Shown in pieces: positions 2,998 to 12,781 of a stretch of DNA of 12,781 bases. This DNA comes from Candidatus Eiseniibacteriota bacterium. Lineage in GTDB: Bacteria; ARS69. The DNA is taken from NCBI GenBank assembly GCA_052390515.1, contig JBQTGV010000098.1, positions 1 to 12,781 of the forward strand. Reading direction: 5' to 3'. Each line of letters begins with the position of its first letter. The stretch's first letter is position 1. Made by a program: the position numbers and the translations under genes. The notes beneath the pieces were generated by a model. It saw nothing but the letters and a program-made list of their open reading frames with translations. It was not told where the DNA came from and made no database searches.

Positions 2998-3999
2998 TCA
3001 TGAGCGGGAAGGTTGCCGGGAGAGCCGGCACCCGAAGCGGTAGTACCCCAGGGCGTTCTGGATCCGGGAGTTCGCCACGAGCTTCGCGTGCGGGGCGATC
3101 TGCTGTAGGCGAGCCCCGAGGAGTTGAGCGCCCCCGCCGGTGAGCCAGAGGACCTCCAGACTACGCGCCTGGTCGCCCCACAGCATCCGGGCGTGCGCGG
3201 CGATGGCGTCGGCGTGGCGGTCCAGAAGGGAGTCGACGGTCGCACTGATGTCGACCTGCGTGTCGGCGATCTTCACCGTGCGCCGGAGTACGGAATCGTT
3301 CATGGCGTGCGGGTCGATCTCGACACCGTAGCGCTTGCCGATCTCGCGGCTGACGTCGAGCATCAGTTCTGCCATCCCACTGTTGCGCGTGAGGCACTCG
3401 CCAGGGATGACCTCGAATCCCTGGAGGGTGAAGTAGTCGGACGTCCGGAACCCGATGTCGAGGACCCCGAGGCGTGCATCCGCGAGCGAGGCATCGGTGA
3501 TGACGCCGGTGTCGTCCATCACCTGCGAGAACACGGTCCCGAGCGGCTGGGGCAGGACGCGAACCTCCTGGATCGTGATTTCCCATGGCGTCCCTTCCGG
3601 CAGGACCTCCACCTTGTGCGTCCCTTCGAGCTGCCGTTTCACGGTCGCCGCATGGGCCGCAAGGTCGTCCACCGGGAGGCCCGTGATGACCGTGGCGAAC
3701 CCCCCCGATTCGCGCACGCGCCGCCGGATGGCCTGCAGCGCGAGCAGCTGGTACGGCACCGTCGTGAGCCATTCGCGATTGAGTCCGACGAGCGGGCGCT
3801 TGCTGACCTTGAGAGCCCGCACGCCGATGACGTACTGGCGTCCCTGGTACATGAGCGCATCGAGATCCTTGCGGTCGAACCCACCGCCGATGGTCACTTC
3901 GTTCGGCGTCCAGTCCGCAACAACGGACTGGAACGCGTCCGAGCCGAACTTGCAGACGCTCTTCGTGAACCCGAATCCGAGGTCGAGCCCGAACAGCAT
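2998..3999 (-). CDS. parM: ParM/StbA-family actin-like plasmid segregation ATPase, 333 aa
   Basis: Phosphate-1 GLDLGFGFTK, ITGLPV, VLPQPLG, phosphate-2 VLDIGFRTSD and adenosine motif LWLTGGGA. SD AAGGAGGAG. Confidence 0.9.
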   Translation of the reverse strand: MLFGLDLGFGFTKSVCKFGSDAFQSVVADWTPNEVTIGGGFDRKDLDALMYQGRQYVIGVRALKVSKRPLVGLNREWLTTVPYQLLALQAIRRRVRESGGFATVITGLPVDDLAAHAATVKRQLEGTHKVEVLPEGTPWEITIQEVRVLPQPLGTVFSQVMDDTGVITDASLADARLGVLDIGFRTSDYFTLQGFEVIPGECLTRNSGMAELMLDVSREIGKRYGVEIDPHAMNDSVLRRTVKIADTQVDISATVDSLLDRHADAIAAHARMLWGDQARSLEVLWLTGGGAQLLGARLQQIAPHAKLVANSRIQNALGYYRFGCRLSRQPSRS

Positions 4000-4169: not shown

Positions 4170-6137
4170 TCAGTCGTGCAGACCGTCGCCGTCCTGGTCG
4201 AGCATGTCGTCCATCACGTTCGCCTCAAGGGCGTCGCCGTCGTCCGCGGCAGCCTCACCCGGCTGGCGTACCGACGGCGGGCTCACGGGCGCGATCGTAA
4301 TGGGTCGCGTCGATGGCGCTGGCGGCCGTGCCGCGGGCGGCGCGGCCGGCGTGACGGGGGGCGGTGTGACGGGCGCAGCCGGCGCGCCGGTTGACGGCCC
4401 TCCCGGGGCACCGGGACGGACGTAGCTGATGAGCGTCGTCGGCTGGGGCTGTCCGCGCCGTCGACGCATCGCACCAGAGGTGCTCGTCGAGGCGGGTGTC
4501 GTCCCGGGCTGGGGAGCGGCCCCGCCGGGACCGTCCGCTCGACGAGGAGACGGCGCCGTCGGAGCCGCGGCGCCGTTGCCGCCGGCGGTGCGGTTCCGCC
4601 CCGCGCCGTTCGCGCCGGCCTCCGCCTGTTCGCTCCGCCGGATATTCACCAGTCGGACGTAGCGACCGAGATCGAGGGGCGGCGGCGGCTCGCGGTCCCA
4701 CCGTGCGCAGTGGCTCGCGTAGTCCCATCCCGTCGGCGCAGCGTTCGTTTGCGCCCAGAGGCTCCACAGCGTGAACGGCATCGTCCGGGCGCCCTTGGGG
4801 CTGAGCCACATCATGTGGCCGCGCGACGCCAGCTCGTGGGTGAGTTGCCGGCTCTCCATCACGAGGTCCTTCTGGATGCGGTACCCCGCGAAGGACGCGC
4901 GCCCGTCGGTACGGTTCGTCCATCCCATCCAGCTCGAGAGCGCCAGCGGCGACCAGGTGCGACCTCGACTCTCCGTCTCGCTCACCTGGATGACCGTGCG
5001 GTCCGCCTTGCCGGTGAAGCGCGCGAGATATTCGGCGCCTTCGCCGGGCCCCAAGCGGAAGGACGTGATGTGCGCGCAGTTGCCAAGCACGCGGTCCCGA
5101 AAGCCCTCCGACAGCCCCGACGCACGATCGCTCAGGCCGCTGACCGTCTGCGAGCCGAGGATGATCCCGATGCCCGTGGAGCGGGCCTGCTCGAACACGC
5201 GCGCGAACTGTGGCAACGCGTAGCTCGGAAACTCGTCGAGGAAGATGACGAAGGGCGCGTGCACCAACTCGCCCTCCGTCCGCTGGATCTCGTCGATCGC
5301 CATGGTGAGGTCGGTGATGAAGAGTCGCCCCAATTGGCCCCCATCGGCGTCAAGTCCCGGCGGGAGGCCCATGTAGGTCCACAGGCCGCGCCGTGCGCCC
5401 TGCAGCAGATCGACGTCGCTGAAGGGTTGGTTGAGGAGACCGGCCCACTTGCCCACATCGAGGCCTTGTAGGACCGAGGTCAGTCCCGACAGCGCCTCCT
5501 GGGCCTGGTGCGCTTGGAACTCCCCGCGCCGGTAGTAGCGCCGGAAGAACGCGTCGAGATCTGCCATACGGTCTTTCTTGCCGAGCGCCGTGAGTCGCCT
5601 CCGGAGCCTTGGCGCGGCGATCTCGTAGTTCCGGGCAAGCTGGAGGATGTCGTCCGGGACGTGACGCAGCTCGGCTGCCATCAACGCGCTGCAGGCCAGC
5701 AGGAGAAACTCGAACTGGATATCGTGGTAGTGCTTGGCTTCGGACGTGGGCTCGATCGGCGGCAACTGCGAAAAGTAGAGGTTCGCGAGAGCGATCGGGT
5801 TCGTCGTCACTGCCGGGTTGTAGGCGTGGACCGGGCGTGTGGGATCGAAGATCCGCATCCGCCAGAGCTGTTGGCGCTGCATCGCCGCCCACGCGAGCGC
5901 GCGCGGCATCATCGGGTCGTGCTTGGTGGTGCAGAAGAGGAATCCCCGCCCGCGGTCCATCAGCTGGAGCATCAGCGCGAGGAACAGCGAGGTCTTTCCC
6001 GTCCCGGTCGTCCCGAACACAGCGAGGTGGCGGACGAGCTCATCGGCCGCGATGTCGATCGGTGTGCCCGACTCTGCCTCGTAGCCGAACACAAGCGGGG
6101 CAAACGGAATGCGGAGTTCCCTGCCGAGGGTGCTCAT
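4170..6137 (-). CDS. Type IV coupling protein (TraD/VirD4/TrbC/DotL-like ATPase), 655 aa
   Basis: Walker A RHLAVFGTTGTGKT (~5991-6014), Walker B FVIFLDEFPSY, then FEQARSTGIGIILGSQTVSGL and VLGNCAHITSFR, typical of the TraG/TraD C-terminal domain. Start placed at 6137 (MSTLGREL) because of the ATGA overlap with the upstream stop. Confidence 0.88.
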   Translation of the reverse strand: MSTLGRELRIPFAPLVFGYEAESGTPIDIAADELVRHLAVFGTTGTGKTSLFLALMLQLMDRGRGFLFCTTKHDPMMPRALAWAAMQRQQLWRMRIFDPTRPVHAYNPAVTTNPIALANLYFSQLPPIEPTSEAKHYHDIQFEFLLLACSALMAAELRHVPDDILQLARNYEIAAPRLRRRLTALGKKDRMADLDAFFRRYYRRGEFQAHQAQEALSGLTSVLQGLDVGKWAGLLNQPFSDVDLLQGARRGLWTYMGLPPGLDADGGQLGRLFITDLTMAIDEIQRTEGELVHAPFVIFLDEFPSYALPQFARVFEQARSTGIGIILGSQTVSGLSDRASGLSEGFRDRVLGNCAHITSFRLGPGEGAEYLARFTGKADRTVIQVSETESRGRTWSPLALSSWMGWTNRTDGRASFAGYRIQKDLVMESRQLTHELASRGHMMWLSPKGARTMPFTLWSLWAQTNAAPTGWDYASHCARWDREPPPPLDLGRYVRLVNIRRSEQAEAGANGAGRNRTAGGNGAAAPTAPSPRRADGPGGAAPQPGTTPASTSTSGAMRRRRGQPQPTTLISYVRPGAPGGPSTGAPAAPVTPPPVTPAAPPAARPPAPSTRPITIAPVSPPSVRQPGEAAADDGDALEANVMDDMLDQDGDGLHD

Positions 6138-6412
6138 CGCCCAGGCTTCACCGTGGCCAGAATCCAGATCCTGATCCGCCGGCACAGCCGGTAGGTGGTC
6201 CAAGCCCAGACCGCCGTCAAGGCCACCATCGCGGCCGCCTCGGGCGCGAAGGTCGGCATGCACCCCAGCAGGGTCGACACCAGCACCACGAAGGCGAGGA
6301 ATCCGACGATGGTCAGTGCAACGCTGGTCGTCGTCTCGACCAGCGTTGCCTTCGGGACCGGCGCGCTCGGCGCGGTAAGGCCCGTAGGACGGAGCGAACT
6401 GTCGTGGCTCAT
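6134..6412 (-). CDS. Small membrane protein with two predicted TM helices, 92 aa
   Basis: Hydrophobic segments VALTIVGFLAFVVLVSTLLG and AAAMVALTAVWAWTTY, with a basic C-terminus. ATGA overlaps at both ends. Confidence 0.7.
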   Translation of the reverse strand: MSHDSSLRPTGLTAPSAPVPKATLVETTTSVALTIVGFLAFVVLVSTLLGCMPTFAPEAAAMVALTAVWAWTTYRLCRRIRIWILATVKPGR

Positions 6413-6654
6413 GCGCTGGCGATCATCACGGCCGGGACCGATGTCGGCCTCTGGGCGAGCGCCCTCGGCGTCCGCGTCCGGAGCATGGCGACGATGAGAA
6501 ACGCCAGCACCCCGCCAAGCGCGCTCGTGAGCGTCGCTTCCGCCCAGAGCGCGGGCAGGCAGGCGCGAAGTTGTCCGGTCACCGCCTCGAGGAGGTCGAG
6601 GTGTTCGAGGACCAGACCGGTAGAGAGCGACAGTCCGGCAAAACGGTTAAGCAT
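6409..6654 (-). CDS. Small membrane protein, 81 aa
   Basis: ATG at 6654 preceded by GGAGGA and overlapping the upstream stop. TM-like segment TLTSALGGVLAFLIVAML. ATGA overlap with the next gene. Confidence 0.6.
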   Translation of the reverse strand: MLNRFAGLSLSTGLVLEHLDLLEAVTGQLRACLPALWAEATLTSALGGVLAFLIVAMLRTRTPRALAQRPTSVPAVMIASA

Positions 6655-7957
6655 TGTGGAGTTCCTCCTCTGCGACCTCAGCGGTCCCGGAGGTCGGGGC
6701 AGACGCGACAGGACGTCCGGCGACTTCGGCGTCTGCCTGTTTGAGCCATGCCAGGAGCTGACGGACACGCGGACGACAGTTGGCAGGGACGAGATCCGGC
6801 GCATGCTCGGTGTGCAGCGCGAGGAGCACGTCTTCGATCTCTGGTGCCGAGAACACGTCCCGCAGGCTGGGGCTGAGCGCGAGCACCTGTGCGCCAAGGC
6901 TGTCGTGCGGGACGGCCGAGTGCGATGTCCATGTGCCGTAGTCGTCCTCGTGGTAGCTGAGGATCTTGCCGAGGTCGTGGCTGGCGGCCAGCGTGGCGGC
7001 AAGCGCGCGGTCGCGTGGCAGCGCGTCGGCGGCCAGGCGGTTGATGGCGCGCACCACGGCGAGGGTGTGAGTCGCGAGGCCGGCCTCCACGCGATCGTGC
7101 CCCTTCAGACTGCCGGGCATCTGCCGGGCGCGGAACAGCCACGCGCTGATGTCCTGGGCCAGTCGTGCCGGGACACCTTCCGCCATCAACGCGGCGGCGA
7201 GCGCTGTGTTCGCGGGCCCCCGCACGAGCCGCACGGGGCGATGTCGTGGCGCGAGGGGCATCGCCGTCGGCGGCTTCGCCGGGGGCGCCAGGCGATGGAC
7301 TGCGACAGCCGTAGTCAGGAGGGTCGTGAGGGCAAGGCTCGCGAGGGACCACGAGACGAGCGTCCAGAACAGCGTGCGCAACAACAGGTGTCGAACGCGA
7401 ATGTGCGCGTCTGCCGCGGCCGCGTGCGCCGCCGTCAGCCTGCCGACCAACCGCTCGGCCGCCTGCTCGGGGGACAGCGCGCCCGACTTATCGGGAACGG
7501 GCTGCAGTTCGAGCGTCTCCCGCGTCGTGTCGGCCATCGCGCCCACCACGCTGCGGATCAGCCGCGACATGCGGTTGGAGACGACCTGGGTGTCGGACAG
7601 TGGCCGCGCGCCGCGCGGCACGAATGTCGAGACGCGCTGCGCCTCGCTCCAGGACGTCTGTACGGTCGCCTGAGCGGGACCGAGGATCATCACGGCTTGC
7701 GTGTACGGATCGCTCGGAAACCTCGTCACGGTGCGCATCCACCGCGCGCCGAAGCGATCGAGCGCGATCGCCGCCTCAGCGGCGGAGGCGGTGGCCACGA
7801 GTTGCTCGTTGATCGACGTCTCGGCGGTGCGCATGACGTGATCGACGTTGCCGTCGACGGCGGCGGTGTTGAGCGCGCCCCAGAACGCGCAGGCCGTGGA
7901 CGACATGCCGAAGAAGGACAGGAGGCTCCAGAGGAGCGCTTCAAGGACCGCCGTCAT
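6647..7957 (-). CDS. Membrane-anchored HD-domain phosphohydrolase, 436 aa (TraI_2/MOBH- or YhaM-like motifs)
   Basis: N-terminal hydrophobic segment VLEALLWSLLSFFG and a second TM LFWTLVSWSLASLALTTLLTTAVAV. C-terminal GHDRVEAGLATHTLAV..AASHDLGKIL..HDSLGA..LHTEH..LKQADAE gives the H..HD..H..H..D metal-ligand set. Start placed at MTAV, after GAGGA. Confidence 0.75.
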   Translation of the reverse strand: MTAVLEALLWSLLSFFGMSSTACAFWGALNTAAVDGNVDHVMRTAETSINEQLVATASAAEAAIALDRFGARWMRTVTRFPSDPYTQAVMILGPAQATVQTSWSEAQRVSTFVPRGARPLSDTQVVSNRMSRLIRSVVGAMADTTRETLELQPVPDKSGALSPEQAAERLVGRLTAAHAAAADAHIRVRHLLLRTLFWTLVSWSLASLALTTLLTTAVAVHRLAPPAKPPTAMPLAPRHRPVRLVRGPANTALAAALMAEGVPARLAQDISAWLFRARQMPGSLKGHDRVEAGLATHTLAVVRAINRLAADALPRDRALAATLAASHDLGKILSYHEDDYGTWTSHSAVPHDSLGAQVLALSPSLRDVFSAPEIEDVLLALHTEHAPDLVPANCRPRVRQLLAWLKQADAEVAGRPVASAPTSGTAEVAEEELHNA

Positions 7958-7970
7958 CGCGCGCGCGTCC

Positions 7971-9152
7971 TCATCGCACCCGCGCCTCACCCCACGTGAA
8001 CCGTGAGTCGCCGCGGCCCCCTTGCGGCCCCTTCCGCCGGGCCTCGATCATGGCCCGCCGGGGCCCGATCACGACCGGCCACGGCGTCCAGCGCCACGGT
8101 GCCGTCATTGCGCGCATCAGGCGCACGGCCGTCGCGTGCGCGGCCCTGAATACCACGCGGTGACTCGCGCCCATGTCGCGTGCCACGAGACCGAGTGGGG
8201 TGCGCACGAGCACCGTTGCGAGCGGGGGGATCGCCGGCGGCTGCGCCCACTGCGCCGTCACCGGCGCCTGAAGCGAGAGCACCGACTCGGCGGCGATCTG
8301 CTCAAGCGCGTGCCGCAGGTCGCTCCGAAGCACTTCCAGGTTCTCCGCGATGGCCTGCGTGCGCAGTGCCTCCCGCGCTTGGCGGTAGAGCAGACGGGGG
8401 CTGCCGACGATGCGCGCCACCTCGGGAGGGAGCACGTGGCGATCCACGACGCTCAACCGTGCCAGTTCCTTGCTCTTAAACCACACCCGCCATACGTGGT
8501 ACGCGGTGCGGCCGCATGCCAGCGTGCGGCGACGGGGCCAGCCGTAGCGTGCCGCCATACGTCGAGTGCCGGCGATCAGGAACAACTGGCGCCGCTCGCG
8601 ACCGACGAAGGTCACGCCGTCGGCGTTCCACGAAGAGTCGAGGATCTCGATGAGCTGCCACGTCGCCGGGTCCCAGACCGGCTTGGCGGTCGGCACGTAG
8701 AAGCGCGAAGCGCCCGCAAGCGCGGGCGAGAGGGCGCGGCGCCAAAAGAGGGGAAGGCGACGCTGCCGGCGCACGCCGTCGCACATGCCCTCGGCAAGGA
8801 TCATGTGACACGTGGCGACGATCGCTCCACGGTGCGCGGGATGCGAGGCACTGAGCCGGCCGAGCGGTGAACGTTCGAGGAGCCGGAGCAGCGCGAGCCG
8901 AAACAGCGCGTCGTTCGAGTCCGCCTGGAGGAGCCGATCGAGGCGGGTTGACGCGAAAGCGGCCTCCGTCGACGGGTCGTGGTGCGCGGCCGCGAGGAGT
9001 TCGCGCGCGCGCGTCACGAGCACCTGATTCGCCACGTCCTGGGGCGCGAGGACCCAGTGACCGCCGAGGTTCAGACGCCACGACAGGCATAGCAGCGGAT
9101 ACGGCCAGCAGGCAGCAGCACTCTGCGGGTCGGGTTGCACGGCATATTGCAC
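7971..9152 (-). CDS. Hypothetical protein, 393 aa; first gene of the coupling-protein block
   Basis: GTG start with SD GGAGGTGAGG, protein-like composition, and a stop 13 nt from the next start. No family recognised. Confidence 0.65.
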   Translation of the reverse strand: MQYAVQPDPQSAAACWPYPLLCLSWRLNLGGHWVLAPQDVANQVLVTRARELLAAAHHDPSTEAAFASTRLDRLLQADSNDALFRLALLRLLERSPLGRLSASHPAHRGAIVATCHMILAEGMCDGVRRQRRLPLFWRRALSPALAGASRFYVPTAKPVWDPATWQLIEILDSSWNADGVTFVGRERRQLFLIAGTRRMAARYGWPRRRTLACGRTAYHVWRVWFKSKELARLSVVDRHVLPPEVARIVGSPRLLYRQAREALRTQAIAENLEVLRSDLRHALEQIAAESVLSLQAPVTAQWAQPPAIPPLATVLVRTPLGLVARDMGASHRVVFRAAHATAVRLMRAMTAPWRWTPWPVVIGPRRAMIEARRKGPQGGRGDSRFTWGEARVR

Positions 9153-9256
9153 GCCTCACCTCCGCTCGGCCAGCGACTGCGTCCTGCCTCGTGGCGGTCG
9201 CTGGATGTCTTGTCGAAGTCGGTGCGAGGCCCCGGAGTTCCCGGGGCGCTCGACGG

Positions 9257-9285
9257 AAAAAGCCGCGGCCCGAGGGGGCCGCGGC
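9257..9285 (-). terminator. Intrinsic terminator after the 265-aa gene
   Basis: Minus strand GCCGCGGCCC-CCTC-GGGCCGCGGC followed by TTTTT. Confidence 0.75.
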
Positions 9286-9333
9286 AGATGGTGGGGGTGG
9301 GGAAGGGCCAAGCTGATCCCCCACGTGTAGCTG

Positions 9334-10131
9334 TTAGGCCGTAACCGCCGGGCGAAGACGCCCGGTGTCGATGGCGCGGCCACGCTGAAGATCCTGCTTC
9401 CAGCGGGGCTGCTCTCTGAACGTCCTGCGGTCGAACTGCGTGTCTGCGTCCCGCCACGGATGCCCGATGCCGATCTGGTACTTCTCGCAGATCTGGGCGC
9501 CGAACATCGGACAGTACTGCTCACATCCGGGTTGGTCGCTCAGACACTGAATCCCGCCGTCCTGCGGCGCGTTGTAGCCAGGCGCCACCGCGACGTTCAT
9601 CCGGTGCCCGTTGCAGAACACCAGCCGGAGCCTCGTGTCGAGACTCTCGGCGAACTCCTGGTCGGCCATCCTCAGCTCAGCGAGCGGCCAGTCCGTCAGC
9701 TCCTCGCCGACGTGCGGTCCCTCGAGAACCTCGATGGTCGCCTTGCGCCCCTCGGCCCAGCGAACGAGCTGAACCACCGTGGACTCAGCCACGTCCATGC
9801 TGGCCGGGAGAAAGGGCGGCTTCGGGAGCACGTAGGGCGGAAGCCCCGCGCTCTCGACCACCCGCTTCCGCGCCCCGAAGATCTGCGATCGCAAGGCTTC
9901 GAGCCCGCCGTGCTCCTGCACGACCTGCTCGCCCTCTCTGACCGAGCCCCCGAGGCTCAGAAGGTCTCGCCGCAACGACTCCGTTGACCGGTACCCGTTG
10001 CCGACGATGTCGCCGACACAGATGCCGTACAGGAGCACGCTCGCCGCCCGCCGGATGTCCTCGACGACGCGACTGGGTGCCTTCAGCACCCCAGCGAGAA
10101 TCGCCCACACATCGATGAATGCGTCCCACAT
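9334..10131 (-). CDS. Hypothetical protein with a C-terminal Cys cluster, 265 aa
   Basis: SD AAGGAGGGG before the ATG. CLSDQPGCEQYCPMFGAQIC gives C-x6-C-x3-C-x7-C. Confidence 0.8.
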   Translation of the reverse strand: MWDAFIDVWAILAGVLKAPSRVVEDIRRAASVLLYGICVGDIVGNGYRSTESLRRDLLSLGGSVREGEQVVQEHGGLEALRSQIFGARKRVVESAGLPPYVLPKPPFLPASMDVAESTVVQLVRWAEGRKATIEVLEGPHVGEELTDWPLAELRMADQEFAESLDTRLRLVFCNGHRMNVAVAPGYNAPQDGGIQCLSDQPGCEQYCPMFGAQICEKYQIGIGHPWRDADTQFDRRTFREQPRWKQDLQRGRAIDTGRLRPAVTA

Positions 10132-10280
10132 GGCCCCTCCTTCTCGGCCCTCCCCACACTGCTACCTGCCAGCCCAAGTGGGGAGGCGAGCCGGAGGGGT
10201 TGGGCCGCGATGCCCCGAAGGGCACGACGTCCTTCCCCACCTCCCCGGTCGAGCCTCAACGGCCGCTCGACCGGTTCCTG

Positions 10281-10298
10281 ATCCGATTGTCAAAGAAC
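10281..10298 (-). promoter_or_regulatory. boxA-like Nus antitermination element (unit 3)
   Basis: Minus strand GTTCTTTGACAATCGGAT resembles rrn boxA (GYTCTTTRAMAA). Confidence 0.65.
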
Positions 10299-10375
10299 TG
10301 TGGCGGCGCGACGACCGCGCCGCCGAAAAGGGGAGGCAGAGGGGCCTAGGTTCTACCTCTCCCGCCTGCGCGCAC

Positions 10376-11374
10376 CTACCGCGCTGACGACGCCTTGCTC
10401 GGGCCTGCGCCCATGACAAGACGGCGCGCCACCTCAAGGGTGGCCTGCAACTGCGAGACCTCGAGACCGAAACGCTGCGCTTCCGTCTCGGCCAACCGCC
10501 GAGCCTGCCACCGATCGACCGCGACCGGCCGATCACCCTCCAGTCGCACGACGTCCGCGCGAATGGGGGGCGTGAGGTAACCGACGATCGTGAGCCACGC
10601 GAGGGCGGCCCACGGCTCGTCCGGCGCTCGACTCGGGAACCGCTGATCCCGAACGAGCCCCTCGAGCAGGTCGAGCATGCGGCGCTTCACCGCCGCACGC
10701 CGGGCGATGGTCGGCGAGTAGTCACCCAAGAGCTTGCGGGCGACGTCCTCACTGACCTCGAGACCCTTGATCTCGTACCGCAAGGTGTCCGGATCCCCGT
10801 CCAGCGCCTGCCGCTTCACCGACGCCATCAGGATGATCCGCGCCAGGCCGCGAGCGGCCTGGAAGCCACGCTCAAGGCCTTCCGCGTTGGGGAGGTACTT
10901 CGCCTCCTTACCGAAGAGACGCTTGAGCTGCCGGTCGGAGAGCTGCGCCGCGAAGGCGAGCTCGCCGCGCCCGACCTCACTGGGCTCGACATCGAGCCCG
11001 GCGAGGGCCCGCAACGCCTTCGCTCCTGCGACCGTGTCCTTGGCCGCGACTGCGACCTTGAGCCCGATCGCCGACTGCTGGAGCCTGGACGCTGCGGAGA
11101 TGAGCTGGTCCTTTCGCTTCTCGCGACGCTCACGTTCCCACGCACGAAGCACGTACTCCGCTTCGGGCGGCAGGTTGAGCATGGGCGCCACGCTCCCGTG
11201 CGCGGACGCTGGGGCTTCGATCCCCAGACGATCGCAGACCCGGAGGAATGCACGACGCACACGGCGCGTCGGCCTCCGAATCCCGAGCTCACGGGCGAGC
11301 TGCTGAACTCGCTGCAACGGGTCGCCCCCTTCCGGGAGCGCCTGCATCAACTGCTCTGCGAGCGCGTTGATCAT
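10376..11374 (-). CDS. Hypothetical, likely alpha-helical protein, 332 aa
   Basis: Start placed at MINALAEQL after GAGGGGGG. Ala/Leu/Arg/Glu-rich composition. No family recognised. Confidence 0.8.
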   Translation of the reverse strand: MINALAEQLMQALPEGGDPLQRVQQLARELGIRRPTRRVRRAFLRVCDRLGIEAPASAHGSVAPMLNLPPEAEYVLRAWERERREKRKDQLISAASRLQQSAIGLKVAVAAKDTVAGAKALRALAGLDVEPSEVGRGELAFAAQLSDRQLKRLFGKEAKYLPNAEGLERGFQAARGLARIILMASVKRQALDGDPDTLRYEIKGLEVSEDVARKLLGDYSPTIARRAAVKRRMLDLLEGLVRDQRFPSRAPDEPWAALAWLTIVGYLTPPIRADVVRLEGDRPVAVDRWQARRLAETEAQRFGLEVSQLQATLEVARRLVMGAGPSKASSAR

Positions 11375-11543
11375 GATGCTGTTCCCCCCTCGTGTTCGGC
11401 CCCCCCCCCCACCGGCCATGAGGACGTGCGCAATGGCGTACGACGGCGAAGAAAAAGAGGGCGAGGGCCGAACACGAGGGGACCCTGATCACACACAGGG
11501 AACCCCTCTGCCAGATCGGCGTTCTTGCGGAACGCCGATTCCT

Positions 11544-11561
11544 ATCCAGTTATCAAAGAGC
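11544..11561 (-). promoter_or_regulatory. boxA-like element (unit 2)
   Basis: Minus strand GCTCTTTGATAACTGGAT, preceded by a small hairpin GACGC-TGCAG-GCGTC (11564-11578). Confidence 0.65.
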
Positions 11562-11751
11562 CCGACGCCTGCAGCGTCCTGTCCTACCGTACGCGATCGC
11601 GATGCGGGGTGAGCGCGTCTCTGGGATCACTCCCCATCGCGTTCGTGAGCCCGATGCTGCGGCCCCATGGCGGTGTGATCCGCCACGGGGCCGTCGAGTG
11701 GTGGGGCAGAAGGGGCCGATCAAGGTTCTGCCCACCGGGTGCGACTTCGTA

Positions 11752-12018
11752 TCACTGGGCCGAGAGCAGCTGCTTGAGACGCTGGACGGCCACGTACTTC
11801 GCGGCCGCGGCGTCCCGTCGCGCCTGCTGCTCGGCGGTGTCCTCGACGAGCGGCTCGTCGAGCGTGAACCGCTCGGCGAGGAACGTCCCGCCGATGCAGT
11901 CCACCGAGTCGAGTGCCCACTGGCGATGTCCGACGTGCGTGAGCAGCAGCGTCTCTCCGGTCGGCTGAAGGACGGCACGAAAGCCGCCCTGAACTTCGTG
12001 GAACTCCACCGTCTGCAT
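11752..12018 (-). CDS. Hypothetical protein, 88 aa
   Basis: MQTVEFHEVQGG..KQLLSAQ, with SD GGGGGAGGA just upstream of the ATG at 12018. Confidence 0.75.
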   Translation of the reverse strand: MQTVEFHEVQGGFRAVLQPTGETLLLTHVGHRQWALDSVDCIGGTFLAERFTLDEPLVEDTAEQQARRDAAAAKYVAVQRLKQLLSAQ

Positions 12019-12171
12019 GTTCCTCCCCCTTCCCGGCCCCAATCGCAACGGCAGAGTCCTCCAGACGATGCAGTAGGCCGACAATCGAACGTGTGGGGGC
12101 CGGGAGAGCGGAAGGCCCCTGGAAGTACTCACAGGGTGTCCCCTTCTGCCCAGTCGGCGCCGATGGCGCCG

Positions 12172-12188
12172 ACGACTTATCAAAGAGC
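12172..12188 (-). promoter_or_regulatory. boxA-like element (unit 1)
   Basis: Minus strand GCTCTTTGATAAGTCGT. Confidence 0.6.
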
Positions 12189-12262
12189 GAGAGCAACCTT
12201 CGACAGACAGCATACGGATGTCCGCCACCATGAGGACGGACCCTGGACTCCGCGGAGGGTCC

Positions 12263-12781
12263 TCATGGCGTGCGCCCGGCCTGGGCCGAGGCGACAGGCG
12301 CCGTATGCGCTCGCTGGGCCTGGAGTGCGAGGTAGGCCCGCGCGACCTTGTGGGCGTACCCGAGCTTCCGATGCGGGGTCGCGGAGTGGTAGCGGCCCAC
12401 GCCACCCCAGCCCGACTCGAGCTCCATCGTGGAGCGAAGGATCAGCGCCGCAACCACAAGGTTTGTCCACGGGTCGAGGAGATCGGCCTTCCGGAGGCCG
12501 AAGACCTGGCCCCAGTGGCGGTAGGAGATCTGTCCGTAGCCGATGTCGACGTCCTGGCTGACCCTCGCCAGCAGCTGCTCCGCTTCCTGCCGCGTGCGTG
12601 GGTAGTAGCCCACGCCGCCGACGTTGAGGGCCCATGGCCAGCCCTGGCTCTCGACCCAGACGACGGAGGCTAAGACGTCGGGATGGACGCCCGCGTGTTG
12701 CGCGGCGGCGGCGATGAGCACGCCGAGATACTCGCGATCGACGCCGGCGCTCGTCGCGGCCGCCTGGCTTGGGCCATAGAC
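12263..12781 (-). CDS. Lytic transglycosylase (SLT, VirB1/PilT-like), 5' end outside the window
   Basis: Catalytic VVWVES, PWALNVGG, VDIGYGQIS, LLDPWTNL and VGRYHS motifs. The frame stays open to the window edge. Confidence 0.9.
   Translation of the reverse strand, partial: VYGPSQAAATSAGVDREYLGVLIAAAAQHAGVHPDVLASVVWVESQGWPWALNVGGVGYYPRTRQEAEQLLARVSQDVDIGYGQISYRHWGQVFGLRKADLLDPWTNLVVAALILRSTMELESGWGGVGRYHSATPHRKLGYAHKVARAYLALQAQRAHTAPVASAQAGRTP

What the first reader, a model, noticed from the sequence alone, without database searches (positions are those of the whole stretch)
9296..12151. Each ORF is closed by its own long-range 5'-3' complementary arm pair
Seen: GGGCAGAAGGGG (11704-11715) / CCCCTTCTGCCC (12140-12151) enclose the 88-aa ORF. 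GGCAGAGGGG (10335-10344) / CCCCTCTGCC (11503-11512) enclose the 332-aa ORF. GGTGGGGAAGG (9296-9306) / CCTTCCCCACC (10231-10241) enclose the 265-aa ORF. The one-base indel between units 1 and 2 is mirrored on both arms. Anti-arms lie 27-36 nt after the stop and 10 nt before a strong hairpin; arms lie 1-3 nt from H1. Known parallels are RNase III processing stems around 16S/23S rRNA and the 5'-3' fold-back of hok and aapA toxin mRNAs. Inference: the units could be cut out as stable monocistronic RNAs, held silent until processed, or fold as ssDNA loops during transfer.
Basis: partly seen in the sequence, partly recalled or inferred. Interest (0 to 1): 0.85.

Follow-up and report, generated by a model that had tools for sequence, protein, structure and literature searches.

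The report
Leader-trailer pairing around three plasmid genes
Three neighbouring genes of an uncultured environmental plasmid each carry a short G-rich stretch ahead of the gene and its exact complement just behind it, kept unchanged in related plasmids, which most likely lets each messenger RNA fold back on itself to set its processing or lifetime: a known kind of device, used here in an unusually modular way.

Summary
They are more than chance: 3, 38 and 36 of 2000 shuffles reach them, and 0.3-5% of 1500 control genes do. The genes lie on the minus strand of a conjugative-plasmid-like contig. Each has the same frame: A/T-rich box, hairpin H1, G-arm, hairpin H3, a long helix burying the Shine-Dalgarno, the ORF, a 3' hairpin H0 that contains the C-arm, 10 nt, then GC hairpin H2. 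Related loci have ORFs about 66% identical in protein. There the arms and the H0 5' strand are among the few identical intergenic blocks, whereas H1, H2 and H3 change by compensation. New here: each C-arm has two exclusive partners, H0 nearby and the G-arm far away. I read this as mRNA leader-trailer pairing that governs processing or stability (confidence 0.5). Against it: the "mirrored indel" fails in 3 of 6 loci, and one substitution is uncompensated. A 3-kb polycistron fold loses all three helices. 10% of control genes also close 5'-3' in silico. DNA inversion, integron-like cassettes and ssDNA promoters are not supported. Verdict: new variant of a known kind (icaR, hbs, hok/aapA, rRNA processing stems). 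Interest 0.55.

The parts
12177..12188 (-). A/T-rich box of the 88-aa unit (mRNA sense GCTCTTTGATAA)
   Evidence: TCTTTGAYAA occurs 4 times in the 4.27-Mb genome, 3 of them in this contig. It is an identical block between the window and L012.
12153..12173 (-). hairpin H1 of the 88-aa unit
   Evidence: The stem sequence differs in L012 and L013 but still pairs.
12140..12151 (-). G-arm of the 88-aa unit (GGGCAGAAGGGG in mRNA sense)
12024..12112 (-). leader helix that buries the Shine-Dalgarno of the 88-aa gene (arms 12024-12040 and 12096-12112)
   Evidence: (I13)
11752..12018 (-). 88-aa ORF, no known family
   Evidence: Relatives at 37-38% identity in L012 and L013. Covered by RNA-library contigs.
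11726..11736 (-). 5' strand of local 3' hairpin H0 (GGTGGGCAGAA), a near copy of the G-arm
   Evidence: Lies in an identical block with L012.
11704..11715 (-). C-arm of the 88-aa unit (CCCCTTCTGCCC). It forms the loop end and 3' strand of H0.
   Evidence: One RNA-library contig ends at 11706.
11660..11693 (-). GC hairpin H2, 10 nt after the C-arm
11550..11561 (-). A/T-rich box of the 332-aa unit
11516..11538 (-). hairpin H1 of the 332-aa unit
11503..11512 (-). G-arm of the 332-aa unit (GGCAGAGGGG)
   Evidence: Homologues have this form or a form with one more A.
11386..11481 (-). leader helix that buries the Shine-Dalgarno of the 332-aa gene (23-nt arms, 91% complementary). It holds an 11-base homopolymer run at 11400-11410.
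   Evidence: (I1). Both arms differ in homologues and still pair.
10376..11374 (-). 332-aa ORF, no known family, mostly helical model
10352..10363 (-). 5' strand of H0 of the 332-aa unit (GGGAGAGGTAGA)
10335..10344 (-). C-arm of the 332-aa unit (CCCCTCTGCC)
   Evidence: Invariant in 9 of 9 homologous loci that show it. Lies in an identical block.
10302..10324 (-). GC hairpin H2, followed by a T-rich tail that runs into the next box (terminator-like)
10287..10298 (-). A/T-rich box of the 265-aa unit (GTTCTTTGACAA)
   Evidence: Invariant in all 9 rows of alignment A4.
10245..10274 (-). hairpin H1 of the 265-aa unit
   Evidence: One pair changed on both sides and G-U/A-U switches in homologues.
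10231..10241 (-). G-arm of the 265-aa unit (GGTGGGGAAGG)
10134..10199 (-). leader helix that buries the Shine-Dalgarno of the 265-aa gene
9334..10131 (-). 265-aa ORF, no known family
   Evidence: Covered by contigs of four RNA libraries.
9317..9324 (-). 5' strand of H0 of the 265-aa unit (GTGGGGGA)
   Evidence: Lies in an identical block with L005.
9296..9306 (-). C-arm of the 265-aa unit (CCTTCCCCACC)
   Evidence: RNA-library contigs of two runs end at 9298 and 9301.
9262..9285 (-). GC hairpin H2 with a T-run (intrinsic-terminator-like)

Best explanation
The arms are parts of an mRNA-level device repeated in three consecutive genes of a conjugative-plasmid-like element. In mRNA sense each gene has this frame: A/T-rich box, hairpin H1, G-arm, hairpin H3, a long helix that buries the Shine-Dalgarno, the ORF, a 3' hairpin H0, 10 nt, then GC hairpin H2. 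The C-arm is the last loop bases plus the 3' strand of H0. The G-arm is a near copy of the H0 5' strand, extended into that loop. The C-arm therefore has two mutually exclusive partners: H0 nearby, or the G-arm 0.4-1.2 kb upstream. Pairing with the G-arm (10-14 bp, about -25 to -31 kcal/mol) joins leader and trailer and closes the cistron into a loop. The conserved loop bases could serve as a toehold for this exchange. I infer that the closure sets how each cistron is cut out of the transcript and how long it lasts (end definition and protection from RNases). I do not think it unmasks the ribosome site. Shown: the anatomy, its excess over chance, its conservation, the sense-strand bias of the structure, and the presence of the ORFs in RNA libraries. 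Inferred: that the arms pair in the cell, and what the pairing does.
For: (1) Perfect own-partner complementarity of 12, 10 and 11 nt, against 7-8 nt for cross-unit combinations. It is rare in shuffles (3, 38 and 36 of 2000). It is rare in 1500 control genes (>=10 nt in 81, >=11 in 21, >=12 in 5). (2) Fixed geometry in all three units: G-arm 1-3 nt after H1, and C-arm exactly 10 nt before H2. (3) Conservation. Between the window and the homologue lineage the spacers are 60-71% identical and the ORFs 59-73% in nucleotides. The identical blocks of >=9 nt are the boxes, the G-arms, the C-arms with their tails, the H0 5' strands and the Shine-Dalgarno stems. By contrast H1, H2 and H3 differ in sequence and keep pairing: 8 of 86 predicted pairs changed on both sides. 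A three-way constraint (G-arm, H0 5' strand, C-arm) would explain why these blocks are frozen while two-partner hairpins drift. The conserved CCCC or CC in the H0 loop has no partner within H0 but pairs with the G-arm. (4) Unit-length RNAs fold with the arm helix in the minimum-energy structure, at pair probability 0.85-1.0 in 3 of 3 window units, and in 8 of 11 homologue units. In the leader alone the G-arm is 31-70% unpaired, so it is available. (5) The structure is strand-specific. The mRNA sense of spacers A and C is 6-20 kcal/mol more stable than the antisense in 7 of 7 cases, with more G-U pairs. That favours RNA over the template strand. (6) In the 88-aa unit the G-arm differs at both ends between the window and L012/L013, yet the helix stays 12 bp by shifting one register. 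(7) Contigs of four RNA libraries cover parts of all three ORFs at 99-100% identity. The three contigs that enter a trailer stop inside a C-arm (9298, 9301, 11706). This is only a weak hint. (8) Known precedent for 5'/3'-UTR helices of this size: hbs, 14 bp (abstract, PMC5737220) and icaR (abstract, PMC3868564).
Against: No compensatory change supports the long-range helix among orthologues. The G-arm of the 332-aa unit is polymorphic (one or two A) while its C-arm never changes, so 3 of 6 loci with both arms have a bulge. L008 has an uncompensated C-arm substitution, 1 of 8 loci for the 265-aa unit. In L012 and L013 the G-arm of the 332-aa unit matches the C-arm of the previous unit better than its own (14 against 9 perfect nt). 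Folded as one 3013-nt polycistron, none of the three arm helices appears in the minimum-energy structure. 5'-3' closing helices are common in silico: 9 of 90 control genes show >=10 uninterrupted bp between their flanks, and 23 of 90 show >=8. The untranslated regions are rich in G-runs and C-runs. Duplex energies of own and foreign leader-trailer pairs are therefore similar, and the C-arm regions pair about as well with Shine-Dalgarno regions. No promoter was found for any unit (0 sites), so the transcript ends are unknown. The contig stops at the C-arms lie at G-rich runs, where short-read cover often drops, so they may be technical.
Confidence: 0.5

Rival explanations
1. The arms are conserved for separate, local reasons, and their long-range complementarity is a by-product. 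The C-arm is kept because it is the 3' strand of the 3' hairpin H0. The G-arm is kept as a purine-rich leader element, for example a Shine-Dalgarno-like standby or protein-binding site. G-rich and C-rich motifs are simply reused in these untranslated regions.
For: Each C-arm lies in a conserved local hairpin. The G-arms resemble the genes' own Shine-Dalgarno regions, and the C-arm regions pair with those regions at similar energy. There are uncompensated differences in homologues. 10% of control genes close 5'-3' in silico. The polycistron fold drops the helices.
Against: It does not explain why the G-arm extends its match into conserved loop bases that have no partner in H0. It does not explain why two unrelated arm sequences (the GGCAGAGGGG type and GGTGGGGAAGG) each find their exact complement at the same place, 10 nt before H2. 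It does not explain why H0 is frozen in sequence while H1, H2 and H3 drift by compensation.
Confidence: 0.2
2. The pairing is at RNA level but with other partners. Either the C-arm of one unit pairs with the G-arm region of the next, closing the spacer (H2, box, H1) into a compact domain that RNases cut out. Or the C-arm acts like the icaR 3'-UTR motif and pairs with a Shine-Dalgarno region.
For: L012 and L013: the C-arm of the 88-aa unit and the G-arm of the 332-aa unit match over 14 nt. The consensus fold of spacer C closes it with an 11-pair helix that overlaps the next G-arm, with two pairs changed on both sides. In the polycistron fold the C-arm of the 332-aa unit pairs with the Shine-Dalgarno of the 265-aa gene. 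Energies are similar. Pyrimidine-rich anti-SD-like sequences act on ribosome sites over hundreds of nt (abstract, PMC12697547).
Against: In the window and in 5 of 6 unit comparisons the own-ORF pairing is the longer perfect match. The window's spacer-closing helices are only 7 bp or bulged. The alignment around the G-arm is shifted by one base for the window, so the 'compensation' there is doubtful. The Shine-Dalgarno regions are already held in 17-23-bp helices.
Confidence: 0.15
3. The arms act at DNA level. They could be inverted repeats for inversion or excision of gene cassettes, or folds of the single strand that enters a recipient during conjugation (ssDNA promoter or priming site).
For: The 88-aa unit is present in 3 loci (window, L012, L013). 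It is absent as a block in 4 of the 7 loci that span the SLT-to-332-aa interval. The gap runs from just after the box to about 8 nt past the C-arm. L004 and L009 have yet another left neighbour, joined near the same place. The context is plasmid-like: coupling protein, ParM-like actin, SLT, HD protein. Repeated structured leaders precede establishment operons in pLS20 plasmids (sections 3.2, 3.3 and 4.1 of PMC8708921).
Against: No unit is inverted in any of the 14 related loci. No recombinase family was found among the 10 ORFs scanned. Gene order is fixed. The arms are 10-12 nt and differ between units. No -35/-10 pair was found in any stem. Spacers A and C are more stable in mRNA sense than in template sense. 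The helices that bury the ribosome sites make sense only in RNA.
Confidence: 0.1
4. Chance complementarity in G+C-rich untranslated regions.
For: Single matches of 10-11 nt occur in 1.4-5.4% of control genes.
Against: Three consecutive genes have it, at the same geometry. Taking the control rates as independent (0.0033, 0.054 and 0.014), the product is about 2.5e-6. All arms are identical in a lineage whose spacers are only 60-71% identical.
Confidence: 0.03

Closest known systems
hbs mRNA of Bacillus subtilis: 14-bp interaction between 5' and 3' UTR that modulates RNase Y cleavage (abstract of PMC5737220)
   Same: A short long-range helix (10-14 bp here) between the leader and trailer of one mRNA. 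The leader is highly structured. The proposed effect is on RNase access and mRNA life.
   Different: Here the device is repeated in three tandem plasmid genes, each with its own arm sequence. The 3' arm is shared with a competing local hairpin. No cleavage site is mapped here.
icaR mRNA of Staphylococcus aureus: the 3'-UTR UCCCCUG motif pairs with the Shine-Dalgarno region and makes an RNase III substrate (abstract of PMC3868564)
   Same: A C-rich 3'-UTR motif pairs with a G-rich 5' segment of the same mRNA. The C-arm regions here can also pair with the ribosome-site regions.
   Different: The best complement here is a dedicated G-arm about 110-130 nt upstream of the ribosome site, not the site itself. 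That site is already buried by a separate leader helix.
hok/Sok and aapA/IsoA type I toxin mRNAs: 5'-3' fold-back keeps the full-length mRNA inert until the 3' end is processed (abstract of PMC5416894; the hok fbi/tac names are recalled)
   Same: End-to-end pairing, alternative partners for one element, and a buried ribosome site.
   Different: The ORFs are 88-332 aa conserved proteins, not 30-50-aa toxins. No antisense RNA gene was seen. Here the 3' element, not the 5' element, has two partners. Sequestering the G-arm does not change ribosome-site exposure in silico.
RNase III processing stems that flank 16S and 23S rRNA (abstract of PMC6582327) and intra-operon RNase III duplexes such as yabJ-spoVG (search listing)
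   Same: Sequences on either side of a gene pair and could define a cut that releases it from a polycistron. RNA-library contigs stop inside the C-arms.
   Different: The arm helices are 10-14 bp, shorter than the large rRNA stems. They would need stacking on H1 or H2 to make a two-turn substrate.
EGeRS1 leaders of pLS20-family plasmids and Frpo ssDNA promoters of F-like plasmids (sections 3.2, 3.3 and 4.1 of PMC8708921; search listing)
   Same: Repeated, heavily structured leaders in front of several genes of a conjugative element, with no ordinary promoter visible.
   Different: No sequence relation. The leaders here are about 165-185 nt, not 400-750 bp. No stem holds -35/-10 boxes. A matching 3' partner is not described for those elements in the parts I read.

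Membership tests
5'/3'-UTR long-range interaction of a bacterial mRNA (hbs/icaR kind) | Complementary segments in the leader and trailer of the same cistron, more than chance | tested here: met
   12, 10 and 11 perfect nt. Shuffles reach this in 3, 38 and 36 of 2000. Control genes: 5, 81 and 21 of 1500.
5'/3'-UTR long-range interaction of a bacterial mRNA (hbs/icaR kind) | Both segments lie on one transcript and pair in the cell | not testable with these tools
   Transcript ends are unknown. Only assembled contigs of RNA libraries were available. Folding gives the helix in unit-length RNAs but not in a 3-kb polycistron.
5'/3'-UTR long-range interaction of a bacterial mRNA (hbs/icaR kind) | Complementarity kept in relatives | tested here: inconclusive
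   The arms are nearly invariant, so there is no covariation. 3 of 6 loci carry a bulge (332-aa unit) and 1 of 8 a mismatch (265-aa unit). The helix is kept in 8 of 11 folded homologue units.
icaR-type 3'-UTR / Shine-Dalgarno pairing | The 3'-UTR motif pairs with the ribosome binding site itself | tested here: inconclusive
   The longest perfect match is to the G-arm, not the ribosome site. Duplex energies with the ribosome-site regions are similar for two units and weaker for one.
hok/aapA type I toxin mRNA fold-back | Small toxic peptide ORF with an antisense RNA | tested here: not met
   The ORFs are 88, 332 and 265 aa, with conserved full-length relatives. No promoter-like site on either strand. 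No Rfam family.
hok/aapA type I toxin mRNA fold-back | Release of the 5' element exposes the ribosome site | tested here: not met
   Mean unpaired probability of the Shine-Dalgarno-to-AUG stretch with the G-arm free and blocked, in 7 leaders: 0.27/0.36, 0.51/0.36, 0.32/0.32, 0.17/0.12, 0.37/0.38, 0.28/0.29, 0.33/0.33. In silico only.
RNase III processing stem (rRNA-operon kind) | Long double-stranded stem (about two helical turns) made by the flanks | tested here: not met
   The helices are 10-14 bp. The two-turn requirement is recalled, not from a call. Stacking on H1 is conceivable but untested.
ssDNA promoter (Frpo kind) | Hairpin whose stem carries -35 and -10 boxes on the transferred template strand | tested here: not met
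   0 promoter-like sites in 8900-12781. Spacers A and C fold better in mRNA sense than in template sense.
Integron gene cassettes (attC) | attC sites with conserved core and inverse-core, an integrase nearby, and a variable cassette order | tested here: not met
   No integrase or recombinase family in the 10 ORFs scanned. The order SLT-(88)-332-265-393-HD is the same in all loci that span it. The attC core motifs are recalled; I saw none when reading the spacers by eye, and no motif scan was run.
Invertible DNA segment (inverton) | Both orientations occur; a recombinase is adjacent | tested here: not met
   0 of 14 related loci have a unit in the other orientation.

The most novel reading that the evidence does not exclude
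Each gene is a self-contained 'closable' mRNA cassette with a translation sensor. H0 begins only 10-17 nt after the stop codon, so a terminating ribosome would open it. The freed C-arm is then captured by the leader G-arm through the conserved loop toehold. The closed mRNA is marked for cutting or silencing. Each transcript would thus give a short, self-limited burst of protein, as a newly arrived plasmid would need. Because the device travels with the gene (the 88-aa unit is gained or lost as a block), any gene could be plugged into the array with its own private arm sequence.
Probability: 0.1. Interest if true: 0.85.

Novelty: new variant of a known kind. Interest (0 to 1): 0.55.

Why it matters
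Few 5'/3'-UTR interactions are characterised in bacterial mRNAs; the ones I read about are single genes (hbs, icaR, aapA1). Here the same architecture is built three times in a row, with two unrelated arm sequences and a built-in competing hairpin. It sits on a mobile element of uncultured bacteria and is conserved across lineages that differ by a third of their protein residues. If the pairing is real, it is a compact natural design for giving each gene of an operon its own RNA ends, lifetime or expression window. It is also a ready test bed, with three independent arm pairs, for how long-range mRNA folding is used rather than avoided. It also marks three unknown, expressed plasmid proteins as a co-regulated set beside the transfer genes.

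Tried and rejected
1. RNA cover of the spacers. In the four RNA libraries laid (contigs only), no contig covers the leaders, G-arms, H1, boxes or H2. 154 of 2349 laid bases fall in spacers, which make up 34% of the region. Random placement gives this few in 1201 of 100,000 trials. A part without cover proves nothing, and GC hairpins and G-runs are poorly sequenced, so this is not used as evidence.

2. hok-like switch: no effect of the G-arm on ribosome-site exposure in silico.

3. Promoters: 0 consensus sites. By eye, TTGACA or TTGATA in the box has no -10 partner at any usual spacing, and sigma-54, sigma-28 and ECF-like readings did not hold across units.

4. Rfam: only sub-threshold microRNA-model noise on the long leader hairpin.

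5. Function of the proteins:
- No hit in Pfam, also at E<=5, in NCBIfam, in PHROGs or in PADLOC.
- No usable hit in the ESM Atlas.
- AlphaFold models have pLDDT 73 and 67.5, and Foldseek against PDB gives nothing at E<=0.001.

6. Relatives elsewhere:
- None in 60 related or sampled genomes by DNA, only two short chance-level hits.
- None in the other 11 genomes of the phylum by protein profile.
- None in PLSDB by DNA or protein.
- None in IMG/VR by protein.

7. A G-arm/H3 pattern scan of IMG/VR gave 46 loci, all unrelated, mostly a coding motif.

8. Box pattern in the two genomes that hold L016 and L017: counts equal the reversed-pattern control, and the 5 exact hits are unrelated.

9. Other genomic copies of the arm words in the own genome (14 and 6) have no H1/H3 context.

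10. Duplex energies of whole leaders against trailers do not separate own from foreign partners.

11. A paralogue-wide alignment of the 5' modules was too poorly aligned for a structure model, so no covariance model was built.

12. L015 was set aside. It matches in two frames and, by my reading, has many one-base gaps, so it looks error-ridden.

Full report
**1. The observation**

All six arm sequences stand at the coordinates given. Every sizeable ORF in this half of the window is on the minus strand. In mRNA sense each G-rich arm therefore precedes its ORF and the C-rich arm follows it. The three ORFs are:
- 88 aa (11752-12018);
- 332 aa (10376-11374; this start is supported by relatives of 331-333 aa);
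- 265 aa (9334-10131).

The C-arms begin 36, 31 and 27 nt after the stop and end exactly 10 nt before a GC hairpin (H2). The G-arms lie 1, 3 and 3 nt after a hairpin (H1).

**2. Is it more than chance?**

- Dinucleotide shuffles of each unit's own leader and 80-nt trailer reach the observed perfect match in 3, 38 and 36 of 2000 trials.
- In 1500 putative genes of the same 70%-GC genome, the longest perfect complement between 170 nt upstream and 80 nt downstream is >=10 nt in 81, >=11 in 21 and >=12 in 5.
- Cross-unit combinations give 7-8 nt.
- Three adjacent genes with the same geometry cannot be put down to chance.

A needed caution follows. 5'-3' closing helices are common in predicted folds. 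9 of 90 control genes folded with their flanks have >=10 uninterrupted pairs between the flanks, and 23 of 90 have >=8.

**3. Context**

The window is a whole 12.8-kb contig of a 4.27-Mb, 223-contig assembly. It carries:
- a TraG/TrwB-like coupling protein (4170-6263);
- a ParM/Alp-like actin (2998-3999);
- an SLT transglycosylase (12263-12781, cut by the contig end);
- a 447-aa HD-domain protein;
- a nucleotidyltransferase with an HD domain.

It therefore looks like part of a conjugative plasmid or similar element. The three genes with arms have no family in any library tried and no fold match. Earlier notes of this scan call the host genome Candidatus Eiseniibacteriota (not checked by me). 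Related contigs are filed by their depositors under other phyla, so the host is uncertain.

**4. Anatomy of a unit (mRNA sense)**

1. An A/T-rich box, TCTTTGAYAA. It occurs 4 times in the genome, 3 of them here.
2. Hairpin H1, whose sequence differs between units.
3. The G-arm.
4. Hairpin H3.
5. A long helix (17-23-nt arms) whose 3' strand contains the Shine-Dalgarno (I1 and I13).
6. The ORF.
7. A local hairpin H0, starting 10-17 nt after the stop.
8. A 10-nt spacer.
9. GC hairpin H2, terminator-like in two units.

The C-arm is the 3' end of the H0 loop plus the H0 3' strand, and the G-arm is a near copy of the H0 5' strand. The C-arm therefore has two mutually exclusive partners. The arm duplexes are worth about -25 to -31 kcal/mol.

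**5. Relatives**

Protein searches found relatives only in metagenomes and MAGs. Fourteen loci were fetched. L016 and L017 lie in genomes flagged unpublished. Two claims rest partly on them: two of the four loci without the 88-aa unit, and two of the four GGCAGAGGGG variants. Both claims also stand on L005 and L010. In every locus that spans it, the gene order is SLT-(88 aa)-332-265-393-HD, all on one strand.

Conservation:
- Between the window and this lineage the ORFs are 59-73% identical in nucleotides and the spacers 60-71%.
- The identical spacer blocks of >=9 nt are the boxes, the G-arms, the C-arms with their tails, the H0 5' strands and the Shine-Dalgarno stems.
- H1, H2 and H3 differ in sequence but keep pairing. 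8 of 86 predicted pairs changed on both sides, and there are several G-U/A-U switches.

So the arms are selected. But because they hardly vary, orthologues offer no covariation for the long-range helix.

What variation exists argues against strict pairing:
- The G-arm of the 332-aa unit has two A in L004, L008, L009, L012 and L013, and one A in L005, L010, L016 and L017.
- Its C-arm is CCCCTCTGCC in all 9 loci that show it. So 3 of the 6 loci with both arms have a bulged A.
- L008 has one uncompensated change in the C-arm of the 265-aa unit, 1 of 8 loci.
- The 'mirrored indel' of the window is therefore not a rule.

A small point in favour: in the 88-aa unit the G-arm differs at both edges between the window and L012/L013, yet the helix stays 12 bp in a shifted register.

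**6. Folding**

- Unit-length RNAs (box to H2) put the arm helix in the minimum-energy structure, with pair probabilities of 0.85-1.0 in all three window units, and in 8 of 11 homologue units.
- The three exceptions are a shifted register in L005, the bulged L004 unit and the mismatched L008 unit.
- Folded as a single 3013-nt RNA, none of the three helices appears. Local H0 hairpins and other G/C-rich pairings win.
- Duplex energies of whole leaders with own or foreign trailers are similar. The C-arm regions pair about as well with the ribosome-site regions.
- The prediction therefore depends on where the transcripts begin and end, which is unknown. No sigma-70-like promoter was found.
- Spacers A and C are 6-20 kcal/mol more stable in mRNA sense than in antisense in 7 of 7 cases, with more G-U pairs. 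Spacer B is equal, and spacer D is the reverse. This favours structure in the transcript over structure in the template strand.

**7. RNA data**

The 3.1-kb stretch has near-identical words in 20 public runs of 16 studies; six of the runs are on record as RNA. Contigs of four soil metatranscriptome runs were laid. They cover:
- parts of the 265-aa ORF (9298-9705, 9917-10147, 9629-9779, 9301-9483, 9859-10055, 9407-9640);
- parts of the 332-aa ORF (11223-11384, 11111-11374);
- parts of the 88-aa ORF (11810-12023, 11706-11856, 11873-12026).

Nine of these 11 pieces match with 0-1 differing letters; the two others have 3 and 5. The three contigs that reach a trailer stop inside a C-arm (9298 and 9301 from two runs, and 11706). 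That is a weak hint of a 3' end at H0 or the C-arm. These places are also G-rich runs, where short-read cover tends to fail. Contigs cannot show strand, level or true ends.

**8. Reading**

The best account is an mRNA device. Leader and trailer of each cistron can pair, in competition with H0, and so close the cistron. The conserved loop bases, which are unpaired in H0 and paired in the long-range helix, look like a toehold for the exchange.

The function is inferred. I favour end definition and RNase protection or processing of each cistron, as in hbs (14-bp 5'/3'-UTR helix that modulates RNase Y; abstract of PMC5737220). The A/T-rich box between two strong hairpins is a likely single-strand cleavage site in a 70%-GC RNA. 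That last point rests on general knowledge of RNase E/Y preferences, not on a call.

A hok/aapA-type activation switch is not supported: sequestering the G-arm does not change predicted ribosome-site exposure in 7 leaders. An icaR-like action of the C-arm on the ribosome site (abstract of PMC3868564) and the long-range anti-SD effects reported in B. subtilis (abstract of PMC12697547) remain possible variants.

**9. DNA-level readings**

- The 88-aa unit is present in the window, L012 and L013.
- It is missing as a block in L005, L010, L016 and L017. The gap runs from just after a box remnant to about 8 nt past the C-arm.
- L004 and L009 have another left neighbour, joined near the same place.
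- So the unit behaves as a module in evolution.
- But no unit is inverted in any locus. No recombinase was found among the ORFs scanned. The order is fixed. No stem carries promoter boxes.
- The parallel with the repeated structured EGeRS1 leaders of pLS20-family establishment operons (sections 3.2, 3.3 and 4.1 of PMC8708921) is one of situation, not of sequence.

**10. Verdict**

The feature is a new variant of a known kind (5'/3'-UTR pairing). It is notable for being modular, triple, conserved and coupled to a competing 3' hairpin. The pairing in the cell and its effect remain untested.

Noticed in passing
window 12024-12112, 11386-11481, 10134-10199: Each of the three leaders holds a 17-23-nt-arm helix whose 3' strand contains the Shine-Dalgarno. 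Both strands differ between the window and the homologues yet still pair. All three genes therefore look translationally masked.
   Followed up: partly
window 11400-11410: An 11-base homopolymer run (C on the + strand, G in the mRNA) sits inside the leader helix of the 332-aa gene. Homologues have an interrupted G-rich stretch there. It is a possible slippage site.
   Followed up: no
window 11640-12262 compared with L005, L010, L016, L017, L012, L013: The whole 88-aa unit (H1 to about 8 nt past its C-arm) is present in 3 loci and absent in 4. L004 and L009 have a different, family-less left neighbour joined near the same spot, just 5' of the H2-like region.
   Followed up: partly
window 9153-9333 and L005 6044-6207: The spacer between the 265-aa gene and the 393-aa gene folds about 13 kcal/mol better in antisense (window + strand) than in mRNA sense, in both the window and L005. 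This is the opposite of spacers A and C. It could hold a + strand element such as an origin of transfer next to the putative relaxosome genes.
   Followed up: no
window 6647-7990 and 7971-9152: A 447-aa protein with an HD domain (weak Cas3-HD-like hits) and a 393-aa protein of no family lie between the arm-bearing genes and the coupling protein. They are conserved in the same order in relatives. They may be an HD-type relaxase with an accessory protein.
   Followed up: no
L005 63-1376 (minus strand): A C-5 cytosine DNA methylase gene lies upstream of SLT on the opposite strand in a related 86-kb contig. This fits an establishment or anti-restriction neighbourhood.
   Followed up: no
window 9153-12262: Nine public runs hold half or more of the sampled 31-letter words of this stretch. 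Their labels include groundwater, estuary and soil metagenomes. The element or close kin seems widespread.
   Followed up: no
L012 640-660: A 19-nt tandem duplication lies directly after the SLT stop codon in L012.
   Followed up: no
genome contig C103, about 22426: This is the only other exact copy of the box in the genome. It is also followed at once by a GC hairpin, but with no G-arm.
   Followed up: partly
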